A stretch of 3,402 nucleotides of DNA. Source: a virus (taxonomy: Duplodnaviria > Heunggongvirae > Uroviricota > Caudoviricetes). The translations under genes and the position numbers were made by a program. The DNA lies in the IMG/VR virus record IMGVR_UViG_2778261300_000007. One strand, 5' to 3'. The number at the start of each line of letters is the position of its first letter. Within the stretch, counting starts at the first letter, position 1. The notes under the pieces are model-generated. The model saw nothing but the letters and a program-made list of their open reading frames with translations. It was not told where the DNA came from and made no database searches. Positions 1 to 3,402 of this stretch are shown one piece after another.

Positions 1-1143
1 CTATGCTGTTTTGATATCTACGATAATCCAGTCTTTACCACGATCATCATTGTATCGGTCGGTCATTTTTCTGGATTTATGGCCTAACAACTTTTGCGTA
101 TCCAGACCCTGTTCCCGATATAACCGTTCTGACAGAGATCGCTGCTCATGAAATGTGGGCGCAGTTCCTTGCTCCCATTTTATGCCACATTTTTCCCTGG
201 CCTTTTTAAAAGCCGTTGTCAGAGTATTTGCAGAAACCTGGTCTCCTCTGTTTGCTTGAGAGGTAGTGTGACGGTAATGGACCAGATATTTACTAACAAC
301 AGCATCCCTGCACTGAGATATAACTTCACGAAGGGTAATATTCAGAGCATCGCATTTCAGGTTAAGCGGAATAGCAAGTTTTGAACCGGTTTTTTCCTGA
401 GTAATGTGCAACATGTCGTCCCAGATATCAGAGAATTTCAAATTGCAGATATCACCTAAACGTTGTCCAGTAACAAGAGCAAGTAGCATGCCGCATTTTA
501 AATAGGGCTGCCGTCTGCTTACGCTTTCAAATATTGCCTGCCATTCGGGCAGTGACAATCTTTGGCGGTTTACTCGATTTCGCGGTTGTTTTGTTGCCTG
601 CGCTGGGTTAAATCCTGGCGGAACATGTCCTGCGTGTTGTGCTTCTTTGAAGACGTCGATCAACACCATTCTCACGACTTGCGCCATCCTGTTATGACCT
701 TCAGCCTTTACAGCATCAATTATTTCGGCAATATCAAGTGCGGTAATATCCTTGAGGTGTTGCATTCCACAATGCTCACGGAAAAGACGAATGGGTTTGC
801 CTTTTTGCCGATAGGAGTTGGGTCTTAGTTCATTATGTTGCAGCCTGTCCTCCTGGATAGAAATATATTTATCAAGCCATTCTGTCACCGTAATGTCTGA
901 GCGCCTGCCTTTCATTCTTTCCAGACGCTCATTGACGCTTAATATTTGTCTGGTACGTTGTTCAGCAATAATGGTATTTGCTTCAGTAGCAACTTGTTTT
1001 GCTTCATTCTCATCAGTTCCTAAGCTATGAAAACGACCGGATAGTGGATGTTTGTATTGCCAATATACCTTTCCGGTTCGCTTATCTAATTTGCAATATA
1101 AATTGGGTATAGAGATTTTGTGAGATCGGGGTCTAGCAGCCAT
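1..1143 (-). CDS. int: Site-specific tyrosine recombinase, lambda-family phage integrase (380 aa, complete)
   Basis: Full ORF with ATG at 1143..1141 and stop at 3..1. Conserved lambda-Int-like catalytic motifs are present: TGQRLGD (Arg), HEQRSLSERLY (His-x-x-Arg), LLGHKS (His) and DRYNDDRGKDW (Tyr nucleophile), closely paralleling lambda Int TGQRVGD / HELRSLSARLY / LLGHKS / SQYRDDRGREW as recalled. The start overlaps the xis 3' end by 11 bp, the classic xis-int arrangement. Confidence 0.9.
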   Translation of the reverse strand: MAARPRSHKISIPNLYCKLDKRTGKVYWQYKHPLSGRFHSLGTDENEAKQVATEANTIIAEQRTRQILSVNERLERMKGRRSDITVTEWLDKYISIQEDRLQHNELRPNSYRQKGKPIRLFREHCGMQHLKDITALDIAEIIDAVKAEGHNRMAQVVRMVLIDVFKEAQHAGHVPPGFNPAQATKQPRNRVNRQRLSLPEWQAIFESVSRRQPYLKCGMLLALVTGQRLGDICNLKFSDIWDDMLHITQEKTGSKLAIPLNLKCDALNITLREVISQCRDAVVSKYLVHYRHTTSQANRGDQVSANTLTTAFKKAREKCGIKWEQGTAPTFHEQRSLSERLYREQGLDTQKLLGHKSRKMTDRYNDDRGKDWIIVDIKTA

Positions 1144-1369
1144 CAGCGATTATCCGTTGGAGTTTTGGGTTTGCGTTTATTGGGAGTTGCGGTTCTGCAA
1201 GCGTTCCTACAAAACGGGAATTTCGGTCAATCATCCAGTAGCGACCAACTTTTATAGCGGGTGGGGCCATCATTTTCCCTTGCGCGTATTTTTTCAGAAC
1301 TCGCTCACTTGGTGCTAAGTCCCCAAATTCTTCTTTAGCCCAGTCCTGTAAAGTGATTAGTCGAGACAT
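1133..1369 (-). CDS. xis: Excisionase / recombination directionality factor (78 aa)
   Basis: Immediately upstream of and overlapping int. The N-terminus MSRLITLQDWAKEE... and PPAIKVGRYWMI parallel lambda Xis MYLTLQEWNARQ... and PPPVKDGREYLF (winged-helix Xis fold). A strong SD (GAGGAGG, complement of 1374..1380) lies 4 nt upstream of the ATG at 1369..1367. Confidence 0.8.
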   Translation of the reverse strand: MSRLITLQDWAKEEFGDLAPSERVLKKYAQGKMMAPPAIKVGRYWMIDRNSRFVGTLAEPQLPINANPKLQRIIADGC

Positions 1370-1442
1370 TTGTCCTCCTCTTAGCTGCTGAGGGAGTTTG
1401 TGACCGATATATCTGACATGATATTAAGCTCATGGCAGGTAC

Positions 1443-1465
1443 ATCTCTTGACTGGTCATAGAGAT
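1443..1465. promoter_or_regulatory. 23-bp imperfect palindrome (ATCTCTTGAC-TG-GTCAtAGAGAT) in the intergenic region upstream of xis; candidate protein-binding (operator-like) site
   Basis: Read directly: 1443..1452 ATCTCTTGAC is the reverse complement of 1455..1465 GTCA(T)AGAGAT apart from one extra T. It lies in the 139-bp gap between the 79-aa gene stop and the xis start. No flanking T-tract on either strand, so it is unlikely to be a terminator. Confidence 0.3.
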
Positions 1466-1508
1466 AAATTTAATGCTGAGAAATGCAGTATTGAATTTAT
1501 CAATTTTT

Positions 1509-1748
1509 CTATTTCCTGCGTATGGCACGTAACTTCTTAATGTGTTCTGCCGTTTCGATCTCTTCTGCTATCCGATCTGCATCAGCTTTATTCACAGGTT
1601 CAAAGTCATGATTAAAGCGGAACATGCTGGCGATACATGTTCTGCCTTTTCGGATGTAGTGAACTTTGTTGTGGGTAGAACGCAGGATTTTGCAGGGAGT
1701 GCCGTGGTGGTCGACGTACCAGGTGTTAGGAAAAATGATTCTGAACAT
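1509..1748 (-). CDS. Hypothetical small phage protein (79 aa), family not assigned
   Basis: ORF with a good SD (GAGGTG, 5-nt spacer) upstream of the ATG at 1748..1746. Co-oriented with int/xis and with the upstream TraR-like gene, 47 bp gap. Basic C-terminus (KKLRAIRRK). No recognisable catalytic motif; family assignment would need an HMM search. Confidence 0.55.
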   Translation of the reverse strand: MFRIIFPNTWYVDHHGTPCKILRSTHNKVHYIRKGRTCIASMFRFNHDFEPVNKADADRIAEEIETAEHIKKLRAIRRK

Positions 1749-1795
1749 TTTTACACCTCAGTTGGACGATGTTGAAATTTGCTGCTTTGAGGCCA

Positions 1796-2014
1796 TCACA
1801 GTCCCCATTGTTTGTTCTTAAGTTCGATCTCCTCCTGGCAACTTGCACAAGTCCGACAACCCTGAACGGCCAGGCGTCTTCGTTCATCTATCGGATCGCC
1901 ACACTCACAACAATGAGTGGCAGATATAGCCTGGTGGTTCAGGCGGCGCATTTTTATTGCTGTGTTGCGCTGTAATTCTTCAATTCCTGATGCTGAATCA
2001 ATGATGTCTGCCAT
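1796..2014 (-). CDS. TraR/DksA-family C4-type zinc-finger protein (72 aa), phage TraR-like RNA polymerase-binding regulator
   Basis: Four-Cys motif CECGDPIDERRRLAVQGCRTCASCQ matches the TraR/DksA zinc finger (compare F-plasmid TraR CEACGNPIPEARRK...CVECQ as recalled). Size (~72 aa) and position in a phage early-left operon are as in lambdoid TraR homologues. AGGGA lies upstream of the ATG at 2014..2012. Confidence 0.85.
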   Translation of the reverse strand: MADIIDSASGIEELQRNTAIKMRRLNHQAISATHCCECGDPIDERRRLAVQGCRTCASCQEEIELKNKQWGL

Positions 2015-2063
2015 CTTTCATTAATCCCTGAATTGTTGGTTAATACGCTTGAGGGTGAATGCG

Positions 2064-2090
2064 AATAATAAAAAAGGAGCCTGTAGCTCC
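2064..2090 (-). terminator. Candidate rho-independent terminator (minus-strand sense) between the 71-aa gene and the TraR-like gene
   Basis: On the minus strand: GGAGC-TACAG-GCTCC (5-bp GC-rich stem, 5-nt loop; plus 2076..2090) followed immediately by TTTTTTATTATT (complement of 2064..2075). The stem is short, so strength is uncertain. Confidence 0.4.
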
Positions 2091-2112
2091 ATGATGATTT
2101 TGTTTTTCATGC

Positions 2113-2328
2113 TCACCGTTCCTTAAAGACGCCGTTTAACATGCCGATCGCCAGGCTTAAATGAGTCGGTGTGAATCCCATCAGCGTTACCGTTTCGCGG
2201 TGCTTCTTCAGTACGCTACGGCAAATATCATCGACGTTTTTATCCGGGAACTGCTGTCTGGCTTTTTTGATTTCAGAATTAGCCTGACGGGCAATACTGC
2301 GAAGGGCGTTTTCTTGCTGATGTGTCAT
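2113..2328 (-). CDS. Hypothetical protein (71 aa from ATG at 2328; the ORF track gives a 93-aa version from the ATG at 2394)
   Basis: Open frame ending at the TGA at 2115..2113. The internal ATG at 2328..2326 overlaps (ATGA) the stop of the candidate 27-aa micro-ORF and has a weak GGGA upstream. The longer start at 2394 has no SD, and its extension (MHFSGSGLHILCAYACRHGTCS) is Cys-rich and atypical. Start choice is unresolved. No recognisable family motif. Confidence 0.5.
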   Translation of the reverse strand: MTHQQENALRSIARQANSEIKKARQQFPDKNVDDICRSVLKKHRETVTLMGFTPTHLSLAIGMLNGVFKER

Positions 2329-2408
2329 TGAACAAGTCCCATGTCGGCAAGCATAAGCACACAGAATATGAAGCCCGCTGCCAGAAAAATGCATTCAGTG
2401 GTTGTCAT
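2325..2408 (-). CDS. Candidate 27-aa hydrophobic micro-protein (MTTTECIFLAAGFIFCVLMLADMGLVQ), not in the ORF track
   Basis: Reverse-complement translation of 2408..2325. The ATG (2408..2406) overlaps the TGA stop of the 74-aa ORF (2407..2405) as ATGA, and its TGA stop (2327..2325) overlaps the ATG of the 71-aa ORF as ATGA. It exactly fills the 77-nt gap and has a purine-rich stretch (GAGAGAGACCAGG) upstream. The hydrophobic core suggests a single short membrane helix. Confidence 0.3.
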   Translation of the reverse strand: MTTTECIFLAAGFIFCVLMLADMGLVQ

Positions 2409-2629
2409 ACCTGGTCTCTCTCATCTGCTTCTGCTTTCGCCACCATCATTTCCAGCTTTTGTGAAAGGGATGCGGCTAACGTATGAAATTCTTCGTCTGT
2501 TTCTACTGGTAGACCTCTAAATCGTGCACAGGCTCTGGCGAAGATCGCAGAAATCAAAGCTAAGTTTGGGCTGAAAGGAGCAAGTGTATGACGGGCAAAG
2601 AGGCAATTATTTATTACCTGGGGACGCAT
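2405..2629 (-). CDS. Doubtful 74-aa ORF (hypothetical); may instead be non-coding divergent control region
   Basis: ORF present in the track, but there is no SD upstream of the ATG at 2629 and the first 14 codons are antisense to the well-supported plus-strand Cro-like ORF. The only in-frame alternative start (TTG) also lacks an SD. The C-terminal part is protein-like and its stop is ATGA-coupled to the micro-ORF, so it is not excluded. Confidence 0.2.
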   Translation of the reverse strand: MRPQVINNCLFARHTLAPFSPNLALISAIFARACARFRGLPVETDEEFHTLAASLSQKLEMMVAKAEADERDQV

Positions 2630-2761
2630 AAGAGTTTCTGTGCGCAGGACGTTGCTGCGGCAACAGGTGTGACAGTAACCTGCATAAATCAGGCAGCAGC
2701 TAAAATGGCGCGTGCAGGAATCCTGGTCATTGATGGTAAGGTCTGGCGAACGTTTGTTTAA
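2588..2761 (+). CDS. Small Cro-like helix-turn-helix DNA-binding protein (57 aa), not in the ORF track
   Basis: ATG at 2588 preceded by a strong SD (AAGGAG at 2575..2580, 7-nt spacer); stop TAA at 2759..2761. The translation MTGKEAIIYYLGTHKSFCAQDVAAATGVTVTCINQAAAKMARAGILVIDGKVWRTFV has HTH plus beta-hairpin spacing like lambda Cro ([30 protein letters not shown] as recalled, versus ATGVTVTCINQAAAKMARAGILVIDGKVW). It is divergent from the leftward small-gene operon. Confidence 0.5.
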   Translation: MTGKEAIIYYLGTHKSFCAQDVAAATGVTVTCINQAAAKMARAGILVIDGKVWRTFV

Positions 2762-2907
2762 CGGTTAGCTACTCAGGATGATAGGGCGCGGCAAGTGAGT
2801 ATGAAGCGGATTTTCAGGAATGCCATCAGAGTTTGGAAATAAAGTGGGTTTTCTAGTGGCAAGAGACTTGATAATATTTAGTTCTTTGAAGCCAAGGAGA
2901 TAGGGTT

Positions 2908-3402
2908 ATGAGAAAATTTATTTTAGCCTTTGTCATAAGTGCCTCGTTTACAGCAAATGCTGGTGTAGAGAAGTTAGGGCCGTGGATAACAAAGTCTGAG
3001 ATAAATAAAATGACTGACCAGACTGACTTTGTGGCTCTTAATTTATCACCAGATTCATATAACAAAGCAGGTACTGATCGTGCAACTTCACTGGTGTTGC
3101 GTTGTAGTGATAACAAAACAGATGCCTATTTATCATTCAATGATTATATGGGTTCGGACAACCCAAGAATTACAGTGCGGTTAGATGGCGGAAAGCCGGT
3201 CAAGAGTGTTTGGGGTGGTGGGGAAGGCGGCGATTCTGCATTTGCTCCACAACCAATACAATTTATAAAGACCTTGGCTAAGCATAAAAAAGCTATTTTT
3301 GGGTTTGAACCTTATGGATCAACTATGCAAGTAGTTGAGTTTGACTTGTCTGAGATTGATAAGGTTGTGGAAAAAATTTCACAGTCTTGCAATTGGAAAT
3401 GA
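2908..3402 (+). CDS. Exported (periplasmic/secreted) protein of unknown function with N-terminal signal peptide (164 aa)
   Basis: Strong SD (AAGGAG at 2895..2900, 7-nt spacer) before the ATG at 2908; stop TGA at 3400..3402. The N-terminus MRKFILAFVISASFTANA-G has a basic n-region, hydrophobic core and A-x-A signal-peptidase I site. The mature part has exactly two Cys (possible disulfide) and a Gly-rich loop (VWGGGEGGD). No catalytic motif recognised. Confidence 0.75.
   Translation: MRKFILAFVISASFTANAGVEKLGPWITKSEINKMTDQTDFVALNLSPDSYNKAGTDRATSLVLRCSDNKTDAYLSFNDYMGSDNPRITVRLDGGKPVKSVWGGGEGGDSAFAPQPIQFIKTLAKHKKAIFGFEPYGSTMQVVEFDLSEIDKVVEKISQSCNWK

What the first reader, a model, noticed from the sequence alone, without database searches (positions are those of the whole stretch)
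2405..2761. Competing gene models: plus-strand Cro-like ORF versus minus-strand 74-aa ORF; probable divergent control region
The 57-aa plus-strand ORF (2588..2761) has a near-ideal SD and a Cro-like HTH/beta-hairpin signature, yet is absent from the ORF track. Its first 42 nt are antisense to the 5' end of the track's 74-aa minus ORF, which has no SD. If the Cro-like gene is real, 2409..2587 is most simply a ~180-bp divergent promoter/operator region between a rightward regulator and the leftward small-gene operon. I could not pick out confident -35/-10 hexamers or repeated operator half-sites by eye.
Basis: partly seen in the sequence, partly recalled or inferred. Interest (0 to 1): 0.5.

Follow-up and report, generated by a model that had tools for sequence, protein, structure and literature searches.

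The report
Truncated ren gene beside prophage deletion scar
The plus-strand 57-codon ORF is the well-known lambdoid phage gene ren (a short, truncated allele with a winged-helix fold), and the supposed control region upstream of it is a deletion scar joining the tail ends of two phage genes, so this is an ordinary decayed prophage.

Summary
A 57-aa plus-strand ORF (2588-2761) with an AAAGGAG Shine-Dalgarno 7 nt upstream overlaps by 42 nt the start of a 74-aa minus-strand ORF (2405-2629) that has no SD. The plus ORF is real coding sequence with a winged-helix fold, but it is ren, not cro. It is 85% identical to lambda Ren residues 1-55, sits directly after replication gene P with an ATGA stop/start overlap, and is cut short by a TAA at codon 58, followed by a decayed ren 3' remnant. 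The "180-bp divergent control region" does not exist. Positions 2405-2511 are the last 34-35 codons of the exo-xis gene orf63 (DUF1382, minus strand). Positions 2508-2591 are the last 27 codons of P (plus strand). The two are joined at a 4-bp microhomology (GGTA, 2508-2511). In intact relatives 6.6-7.5 kb lie between these points: exo, bet, gam, kil, cI, cro, cII, O and most of P. The 74-aa ORF is therefore a chimera of a shadow ORF antisense to P/ren and the orf63 C-terminus. Substitution patterns favour the plus frame. This is ordinary prophage decay and an already known gene.

The parts
2588..2761 (+). ren, short allele: 57 codons plus a TAA stop. It encodes the N-terminal winged-helix part of lambdoid protein Ren.
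   Evidence: The ORF is listed. It is 85% identical to lambda Ren residues 1-55, E 2e-34. It matches PHROG 7054 over 57/57 positions at 4.6e-41 and PHROG 142 (Ren-like) at 1.2e-19. RefSeq annotates the identical sequence as 'protein ren', a pseudogene that is frameshifted with an internal stop. Of 51 variable sites in codons 1-55, 31 fall at third positions of this frame, binomial P 5e-5. The AF2 model has pLDDT 81.7 and H-b-H-H-b-b topology.
2574..2580 (+). Shine-Dalgarno AAAGGAG for ren, 7 nt before the ATG. It is embedded in the last codons of P.
   Evidence: Read from the sequence. It is conserved in all P-ren relatives aligned.
2508..2591 (+). The 3' terminal 27 codons plus stop of replication gene P (GRPLNRAQALAKIAEIKAKFGLKGASV*). 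The stop TGA overlaps the ren ATG as ATGA at 2588-2591.
   Evidence: Translation is. It is identical to the end of the 233-aa P of E. coli EC21Z-014. The lambda P/ren coordinates show the same 4-nt overlap.
2508..2511 (.). Deletion joint. The 4-bp microhomology GGTA is shared by both parental sequences.
   Evidence: The three-way alignment of the window, phage 4A7 (left parent type) and EC21Z-014 (right parent type) is. The megablast match ends at 2511 for the left arm and starts at 2508 for the right arm.
2405..2511 (-). The 3' part of exo-xis gene orf63 (DUF1382 family): the last 34-35 codons plus stop. Its own start and about 29 N-terminal codons are deleted.
   Evidence: Pfam DUF1382 scores 43.2 bits (cut-off 27) over profile positions 19-60 of 60. 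PHROG 292 matches positions 18-63 of 63. It is 80% identical to lambda Orf63 residues 19-63. The intact 63-aa gene is seen in phage 4A7 and E. coli N1420. Lambda orf63 is annotated as a DUF1382 family protein.
2405..2629 (-). The 74-aa ORF of the gene track. It is a chimera. Residues 1-40 come from a shadow ORF antisense to ren and P. Residues 41-74 are the Orf63 C-terminus.
   Evidence: In the intact prophage the same ATG opens a 93-aa ORF antisense to P. That antisense frame carries a stop in 3 of 12 relatives, and its ATG is GTG in 3. It has no SD.
2762..2832 (+). Decayed 3' remnant of ren, following the TAA. It has many substitutions and a 1-nt deletion between 2815 and 2816.
   Evidence: The alignment with full-length ren genes gives 65-67% identity here against 87-93% for codons 1-55. 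The PGAP pseudogene span is equivalent to 2588-2856.
2908..3402 (+). 164-aa VasI/TagO-like protein gene with a signal-peptide-like N-terminus. It always follows the short ren allele.
   Evidence: Pfam VasI scores 26.7 bits (cut-off 26.5). PHROG 1848 scores 2.7e-70. RefSeq names it 'type VI secretion system-associated protein TagO'. The order P, ren57, 146 nt, 164-aa gene is seen in all contexts read.
1..2394 (-). Left arm of the prophage, 99% identical to phage 21/4A7-type elements integrated at icd. It holds integrase (1-1143), excisionase (1133-1369), DUF4222 (1509-1748), TraR/DksA-like Orf73 (1796-2014) and an orf61-position gene (2113-2328/2394).

Best explanation
The window is the int-proximal end of a lambdoid prophage integrated at icd. 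The prophage has lost an internal segment of about 6.6-7.5 kb by illegitimate recombination at a 4-bp microhomology (GGTA, 2508-2511). The deletion runs from inside the leftward gene orf63 (DUF1382) to near the end of the rightward replication gene P. It removes orf60a, exo, bet, gam, kil, the cI/cro immunity region with pL and pR, cII, O and about 88% of P.

The plus-strand 57-aa ORF is ren, the gene that follows P in the pR operon. Its SD lies in the last codons of P, and its ATG overlaps the P stop (ATGA), so in intact phages it is translated by coupling to P.

This allele is a short form. A TAC->TAA change ends it after codon 57, and the rest of ren (2762-2832) has decayed. What remains is just the winged-helix domain.

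The minus-strand 74-aa ORF is not an ancestral gene. The deletion fused, in frame, the first 40 codons of a shadow ORF antisense to P/ren to the last 34 codons of orf63.

Shown here: the identities of the pieces, the joint, the coding frame and the fold.
Inferred: because pL, pR, N and the repressor are gone, neither ORF has its normal promoter. Both are probably weakly expressed or silent, and the prophage is locked in as a defective remnant.
For: - Left arm 1-2511 is 99.3-99.5% identical to phage 21/4A7-type phages and prophages, and the match stops at 2511.
- Right arm 2508-3402 is 99.9% identical to 'replication protein P | protein ren | TagO' of E. coli prophages.
- The three-way alignment shows the switch of parent at GGTA.
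- The two points lie 6,607 bp apart in EC21Z-014 and about 7.5 kb apart in the icd-integrated intact prophage of N1420.
- The window translates to the P C-terminus.
- Ren identity is shown.
- Orf63 identity is shown.
- Codon-position test: 31 of 51 variable sites fall at plus-frame third positions (P 5e-5), against 13 at minus-frame third positions (P 0.91). pN/pS is 0.13-0.31.
- The antisense ORF is interrupted or lacks its ATG in several relatives.
- The model is a winged helix, and the fold matches are MarR, ArsR, IclR, CRP and Zalpha domains.
- The scans give no support for promoters or operators in 2395-2600, and there is no Rfam match.
- The junction is present in an assembled contig found in 4 sequencing runs.
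Against: - The joint was found only in short (5.2 kb) Logan contigs. It is absent from 5,426 complete E. coli genomes, the GTDB representative genomes, IMG/VR and JGI metagenomes. I could not inspect reads.
- There are no expression data, so 'silent' is an inference.
- Whether the 57-aa Ren fragment keeps a function is open. PGAP calls the identical sequence a pseudogene. Other 57-aa alleles are annotated as 'MarR family transcriptional regulator', and all keep the same length.
- In the 76-nt P tail, third positions of P and of the antisense frame coincide. There the codon-position test cannot separate the two frames.
Confidence: 0.9

Rival explanations
1. One reading: the 57-aa protein is a Cro-like repressor, and 2409-2587 is a divergent promoter/operator region between it and the leftward small-gene operon.
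For: - The protein has an HTH plus a beta-hairpin.
- The ORF has a good SD.
Against: - Sequence family is Ren, not Cro.
- The top 50 PDB fold matches hold no Cro.
- Both halves of the 'control region' are coding remnants of orf63 and P.
- No promoter-like site or operator-like repeat is found there.
- In intact relatives the true cI-cro pair lies 2.5 kb upstream of ren, and ren is never adjacent to a divergent gene.
Confidence: 0.02
2. The junction is not biological. The contig is an assembly or library chimera of two separate regions of one intact prophage.
For: The joint is found in no complete genome and in none of the other collections searched. The contig is short and ends in repeats.
Against: The same contig is recorded for 4 samples. 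The overlap at the joint is only 4 bp. By inference from how k-mer assemblers work, unitig assembly cannot bridge 4 bp unless reads carry the joint. A clean microhomology joint that removes a contiguous block is the usual signature of a real deletion (established knowledge).
Confidence: 0.06
3. The 74-aa minus-strand ORF is a genuinely expressed new fusion protein: the Orf63 C-terminal helix with a novel N-terminus. The gene track is then right for this strand.
For: The ORF is open, and Prodigal-type calling picks it. Its C-terminal 34 residues are a conserved Orf63 segment.
Against: - It has no SD.
- Its normal promoter pL is deleted.
- Its N-terminal 40 codons are antisense to strongly constrained P/ren sequence and are not conserved as an ORF in relatives.
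- The fusion exists only in this deletion lineage.
Confidence: 0.07
4. The 57-aa form is a maintained, functional mini-Ren rather than a pseudogene fragment.
For: - Several alleles 82-91% identical all keep exactly 57 codons and the same TFV* end.
- One allele is listed in 460 blocks of the collection.
- pN/pS is 0.13-0.31 among short alleles.
- The ORF folds as a complete winged-helix domain at pLDDT 82.
- A dedicated PHROG of length 57 exists.
Against: - The stop codon, the remnant and the tagO module are almost invariant (1-7% variable), while codons 1-55 are 23% variable. The allelic diversity is therefore best explained by recombination with full-length ren alleles, and the low pN/pS need not reflect selection on the short form.
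- PGAP flags the identical sequence as a pseudogene.
- The full-length C-terminal half is highly conserved in intact ren genes, which suggests it matters.
Confidence: 0.25

Closest known systems
Bacteriophage lambda ren (Ren-like exclusion protein, 96 aa, lambda 40280-40570)
   Same: It is 85% identical over residues 1-55. It holds the same position immediately after P, with the same ATGA stop/start overlap and an SD inside P.
   Different: It ends at codon 57 through a TAA, and the C-terminal 39-40 codons survive only as a decayed, frameshifted remnant. It is followed by a VasI/TagO-like gene instead of ninA/ninB. In this window it is also cut off from pR by the deletion.
Lambda orf63 (DUF1382) of the exo-xis region
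   Same: The minus-strand 2405-2511 segment encodes the C-terminal 34-35 residues at 80% identity or better. The gene order orf63, orf61-position gene, orf73 (TraR-like), xis, int is kept.
   Different: The N-terminal 29 residues and the start codon are deleted. They are replaced by 40 codons of antisense P/ren sequence.
Lambda Cro / Cro-CI type HTH repressors
   Same: It is a small protein with a helix-turn-helix followed by a beta-hairpin.
   Different: There is no sequence-family hit. The fold matches are winged-helix proteins and not Cro. The genomic position is after P, not divergent from a repressor gene, and there are no operators.
Defective lambdoid prophages of E. coli with internal deletions (such as DLP12, Rac, Qin; from general knowledge)
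   Same: It is an integrated lambdoid element that has lost its immunity, recombination and replication genes while keeping int-xis and the nin/Q/lysis side.
   Different: The specific joint (orf63::P at GGTA) was seen only in one contig family.

Membership tests
Ren (lambda ren; PHROG 142; PGAP 'protein ren') | Significant sequence similarity to lambda Ren | tested here: met
   BLASTP gives 47/55 identical, E 2e-34. PHROG 142 scores E 1.2e-19. The homologue list is dominated by 'protein ren'.
Ren (lambda ren; PHROG 142; PGAP 'protein ren') | Located directly downstream of replication gene P, with the start overlapping the P stop | tested here: met
   ATGA lies at 2588-2591, and the P C-terminus is translated from 2508-2591. 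The layout is the same in lambda and in prophages.
Ren (lambda ren; PHROG 142; PGAP 'protein ren') | Full length of about 96-100 aa, including the conserved C-terminal half (YYRFATREEREGK...) | tested here: not met
   A TAA stop lies at 2759-2761. Downstream identity is 65-67%, with a 1-nt deletion. PGAP notes 'frameshifted; internal stop'.
Ren (lambda ren; PHROG 142; PGAP 'protein ren') | Protects the phage from Rex exclusion; interacts with Rex proteins | not testable with these tools
   This is a functional property known from the literature. A two-hybrid interaction of Rex proteins with O and Ren is mentioned in 10.1101/2021.04.19.439022.
Cro (lambda Cro, P22 Cro, HTH_3 Cro/C1 type) | Match to Cro or Cro/C1-type HTH sequence models | tested here: not met
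   No Cro or HTH_3 family appears in the Pfam scan at E<=1. The best HTH hit is HTH_Crp_2, E 0.16.
Cro (lambda Cro, P22 Cro, HTH_3 Cro/C1 type) | Gene divergent from a repressor gene, with repeated operators in between | tested here: not met
   No operator-like repeats are found in 2395-2600. The upstream DNA is coding remnant. In intact relatives the repressor/cro pair lies elsewhere.
Cro (lambda Cro, P22 Cro, HTH_3 Cro/C1 type) | Cro fold | tested here: not met
   The top 50 Foldseek PDB matches are winged-helix domains, and no Cro entry is listed. Only the top 50 of 1,828 matches were visible.
Winged-helix (MarR/ArsR-like wHTH) DNA-binding domains | H1-b1-H2-H3-b2-b3 topology, with structural matches to wHTH proteins | tested here: met
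   The AF2 model has pLDDT 81.7, with H3-13, a bridge at residue 17, H19-26, H30-42, E46-49 and E52-55. Foldseek gives TM 0.73-0.87 to Zalpha, AntR, CadC, MarR, IclR, CRP and AspA. PHROG 1687 'MarR family' scores E 2.1e-8.
Winged-helix (MarR/ArsR-like wHTH) DNA-binding domains | MarR-type dimerisation helices flanking the wHTH | tested here: not met
   The protein is only 57 aa, so it holds the wHTH core alone.
Orf63 / DUF1382 | Pfam DUF1382 match above the gathering score | tested here: met
   It scores 43.2 bits against a cut-off of 27, but only over profile positions 19-60 of 60.
Orf63 / DUF1382 | Complete 63-aa protein with its own start | tested here: not met
   The N-terminal 29 residues of the 63-aa protein of phage 4A7 and lambda are absent. 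Homology stops at the joint.
Zalpha (Z-DNA/Z-RNA binding winged helix) | Conserved Asn-Tyr in the recognition helix and Trp in the wing | tested here: inconclusive
   These are the best fold matches. This speaks against membership.

The most novel reading that the evidence does not exclude
The 57-aa stand-alone winged-helix fragment of Ren, always linked to the VasI/TagO-like gene, could be a selected, functional 'mini-Ren'. It might still act on Rex-type exclusion, on replication proteins or on nucleic acid, and so not be a dead gene. The module ren57-tagO would then be a widespread accessory cassette of E. coli lambdoid prophages.
Probability: 0.2. Interest if true: 0.3.

Novelty: already known. 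Interest (0 to 1): 0.08.

Why it matters
It matters mainly for annotation.

- A gene caller picked a chimeric ORF created by a deletion and missed the conserved ren ORF on the other strand.
- A good Shine-Dalgarno in front of a small HTH ORF was read as a regulator with its own control region. In fact it is the translational-coupling signal at the end of gene P.
- Recognising the deletion joint shows that this prophage has lost its immunity, recombination and replication functions. It is therefore a defective remnant and not an inducible phage.

No new biology is implied.

Tried and rejected
- Cro/CI family membership was rejected. The Pfam, NCBIfam, PHROG and PADLOC-independent scans gave Ren and MarR-type hits only.
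- A divergent promoter/operator was rejected. The promoter/terminator scan and the repeat search were at chance level.
- A structured RNA in the region was rejected, with no Rfam match at E<=1.
- A solved structure of a Ren relative was sought. A profile search of PDB sequences gave only chance-level hits, E>=0.25.
- I searched for the joint elsewhere, in E. coli complete genomes, GTDB representative genomes, IMG/VR and JGI metagenomes. None was found.
- I tried the codon-position test on the 42-nt overlap alone. It has too few variable sites (10) to decide by itself: 6 at plus-frame third positions, 3 at minus-frame third positions.
- The same test on the P tail is uninformative, because third positions of P and of the antisense frame coincide.
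- pN/pS among short ren alleles as evidence of selection on the short form was rejected as confounded by mosaic recombination.
- A full-length Ren structure model, made to see what the short form lacks, had low confidence (pLDDT 66.6, C-terminal half 49-62), so no conclusion was drawn.
- The Zalpha reading of the fold hits was rejected, because the key Tyr position is Ala.

Full report
**Observation.** The window has a 57-aa ORF on the plus strand (2588-2761) and a 74-aa ORF on the minus strand (2405-2629). They overlap over 2588-2629, which is 42 nt. AAAGGAG lies at 2574-2580, 7 nt before the plus-strand ATG. The 20 nt before the minus-strand ATG have no SD-like run. The window lies, at 100% identity, inside a 5,152-bp Logan contig (SRR29736265_6). 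The public gene calls on that contig include the 74-aa ORF and omit the 57-aa ORF. So the observation, including the 'competing gene models', is confirmed.

**What the two arms are.** Megablast against phage records and 5,426 complete E. coli genomes splits the window in two.
- Positions 1-2511 match phage 21/4A7-type phages and icd-integrated prophages at 99.3-99.5%. The match stops at 2511 in every record.
- Positions 2508-3402 match a different part of lambdoid prophages at up to 99.9%. That part is annotated 'replication protein P | protein ren | type VI secretion system-associated protein TagO'.
- No record holds both parts in one place.

A three-way alignment shows the window following the left parent up to ...TTTCTACTGGTA and the right parent from GGTAGACCTCTAAATCG... 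The two parents share only GGTA (2508-2511).

In E. coli EC21Z-014 the two points are 6,607 bp apart. In the intact icd-integrated prophage of E. coli N1420 they are about 7.5 kb apart. The DNA between them holds orf60a (DUF1317), exo, bet, gam, kil, accessory genes, the cI-like repressor, the cro-like gene, a cII-position gene, O and most of P. The simplest reading is a deletion by illegitimate recombination at a 4-bp microhomology.

**The 'control region' 2409-2587.**
- *Left half.* On the minus strand, 2405-2511 encodes the C-terminal 34-35 residues of Orf63. Pfam DUF1382 scores 43.2 bits (cut-off 27) over profile positions 19-60 of 60. PHROG 292 covers positions 18-63 of 63. Identity to lambda Orf63 residues 19-63 is 80%, and lambda orf63 is annotated as DUF1382. 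The intact 63-aa protein is present in phage 4A7.
- *Right half.* On the plus strand, 2508-2591 translates to GRPLNRAQALAKIAEIKAKFGLKGASV*, the exact C-terminus of the 233-aa P protein.

There is therefore no intergenic DNA here. A consensus scan of 2300-2950 found one promoter-like site, on the minus strand at 2805->2778 and outside the proposed region. That is at the level expected by chance. It found no terminator. The only repeat in 2395-2600 is a 71%-complementary 17-nt inverted pair that straddles the joint. Rfam gave nothing.

**The 57-aa ORF is ren.**
- It matches PHROG 7054 end to end (57/57, E 4.6e-41), PHROG 142 'Ren-like exclusion protein' (E 1.2e-19) and, more weakly, a MarR-type phage regulator family (E 2.1e-8).
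- It is 85% identical to lambda Ren residues 1-55.
- Its database relatives are 'protein ren' of 96-100 aa, plus many 57-aa alleles.
- As in lambda (P 39582-40283, ren 40280-40570), its ATG overlaps the P stop codon (ATGA, 2588-2591).

The 'near-ideal SD' is thus the coupling signal inside the last codons of P. It is conserved in all aligned relatives.

**The short allele.** Compared with full-length genes, the window has ACG TTT GTT TAA where they have ACG GTG TAT TAC. After this stop the ren reading frame survives only as a remnant (2762-2832). The remnant is 65-67% identical to full-length genes, against 87-93% for codons 1-55, and it has a 1-nt deletion between 2815 and 2816. RefSeq annotates the identical sequence as a ren pseudogene, 'frameshifted; internal stop'. 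Other 57-aa alleles are named 'MarR family transcriptional regulator'.

**Which strand codes in the overlap?** Thirteen homologous sequences were compared.
- Ren codons 1-55 have 51 variable sites. Of these, 31 fall at third positions of the plus frame (binomial P 5e-5) and 13 at third positions of the minus frame (P 0.91).
- Within the 42-nt overlap alone the counts are 6 against 3, too few to decide.
- In the P tail, third positions of P and of the antisense frame coincide, so the test cannot discriminate there.
- The antisense frame has an in-frame stop in 3 of 12 relatives, and its ATG is GTG in 3. The ren frame is open in all.
- In the intact prophage the same antisense ATG opens a 93-aa shadow ORF running through P.

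The 74-aa ORF is therefore a chimera. Residues 1-40 come from that shadow ORF, and residues 41-74 are the Orf63 C-terminus. The deletion fused them in frame.

**Fold.** An AlphaFold2 model of the 57-aa protein, built on 22 aligned relatives, has mean pLDDT 81.7. It shows the winged-helix order helix, bridge, helix, helix, beta-hairpin.
- Foldseek against the PDB returns winged-helix domains: Zalpha, AntR and CadC (ArsR type), MarR, IclR, CRP and AspA. TM-scores are 0.73-0.87 at E about 1e-2. No Cro appears among the 50 matches shown.
- The viral structure library gives the same picture.
- A weak local alignment to lambda Cro helix 3 plus hairpin exists (Cro sequence from memory). By sequence family, genomic position and fold neighbours, though, the protein is not Cro.
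- The Zalpha resemblance fails at the key tyrosine, which is Ala38 here.
- A model of full-length Ren was of low confidence in its C-terminal half. It says nothing firm about what the short form lacks.

**The short allele and its neighbour.** In every context read, the 57-aa allele is followed after 146 nt by the same 164-aa VasI/TagO-like gene. Among carriers of the short allele:
- ren codons 1-57 are 23% variable;
- the remnant, the spacer and tagO are 1-7% variable.

This points to a recently spread module whose left boundary lies near ren codon 56, with upstream diversity imported by recombination with other ren alleles. The low pN/pS of 0.13-0.31 confirms that the plus frame is coding. 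It does not prove selection on the short form. Whether ren57 is functional stays open; I put it at about 0.2-0.25.

**How it works.**
- *Shown.* Ren is the gene after P, and its start is coupled to the P stop.
- *Established knowledge.* In lambda it is transcribed from pR with O and P (10.1101/2021.04.19.439022). It lets the phage escape Rex exclusion (my recollection of Toothman and Herskowitz 1980, not checked here). The same preprint reports two-hybrid interactions of Rex proteins with O and Ren.
- *Inferred for this window.* The deletion removed pL, pR, N, the repressor and the replication genes. The ren fragment and the orf63 remnant have therefore lost their normal promoters. Neither is likely to be expressed much, and the prophage can no longer be induced or replicate. 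It is a locked-in remnant that keeps int-xis on one side and the nin/Q side on the other.

**Caveat on the joint.** It was found only in this Logan contig, which is recorded for 4 samples. It was not found in complete E. coli genomes, GTDB representatives, IMG/VR or JGI metagenomes. A 4-bp overlap cannot by itself mislead a k-mer assembler (inference), so I rate an artefact at about 0.06.

**Verdict.** The plus ORF is real and carries an HTH. It is not Cro, and there is no control region. The feature is an already known gene, ren in a common truncated allele, next to a deletion scar in a decaying lambdoid prophage. Interest is low.

Noticed in passing
window 2325-2408 (-): A 27-aa strongly hydrophobic ORF (MTTTECIFLAAGFIFCVLMLADMGLVQ). 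Its ATG overlaps the orf63 stop codon (ATGA at 2405-2408). It lies inside the 5' extension of the 93-aa ORF 2113-2394, which other annotations start later, giving 71 aa. It may be a small membrane peptide of the exo-xis region. It is conserved in phage 4A7.
   Followed up: partly
window 2423-2434: A TCTGCT tandem unit inside the orf63 C-terminus. The window and phage 4A7 have 2 units, and E. coli EC21Z-014 has 4. This in-frame 12-bp length variation changes the acidic Glu/Ala tail.
   Followed up: no
window 2753-3402; loci L002, L013-L020: The ren stop, the decayed ren remnant, the 146-nt spacer and the VasI/TagO-like 164-aa gene form a nearly invariant module (1-7% variable sites). It sits next to a highly variable ren N-terminal half (23%). 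This marks a sharp recombination boundary near ren codon 56. A T6SS-accessory-like secreted protein carried as a moron in lambdoid prophages may deserve its own look.
   Followed up: partly
model of window 2588-2758: The best PDB fold matches of the Ren winged helix are Zalpha (Z-DNA/Z-RNA binding) domains, at TM 0.76-0.80 and 23% identity. Asn34 and Trp53 line up with Zalpha Asn and Trp, but the essential Tyr position is Ala38.
   Followed up: partly
protein P0095 (ENA contig, 573 bp): A 75-aa predicted protein that begins as Ren (residues 1-27) and continues as the shadow ORF antisense to P. This suggests an inversion-type junction or an assembly artefact in another sample.
   Followed up: no
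L004 (reverse complement) 1-174, just outside window position 1: The contig continues beyond the integrase stop into a phage-borne icd 3' end (...EGAKLLKCSEFGDAIIKNM*). This fits integration at icd as in phage 21/e14-type elements.
   Followed up: partly
window 2805-2778 (-): The only sigma-70-like consensus match in 2300-2950 (TTCATA-16-TATCAT) lies in the ren remnant and points leftward toward the 74-aa ORF. The count equals the chance expectation.
   Followed up: no
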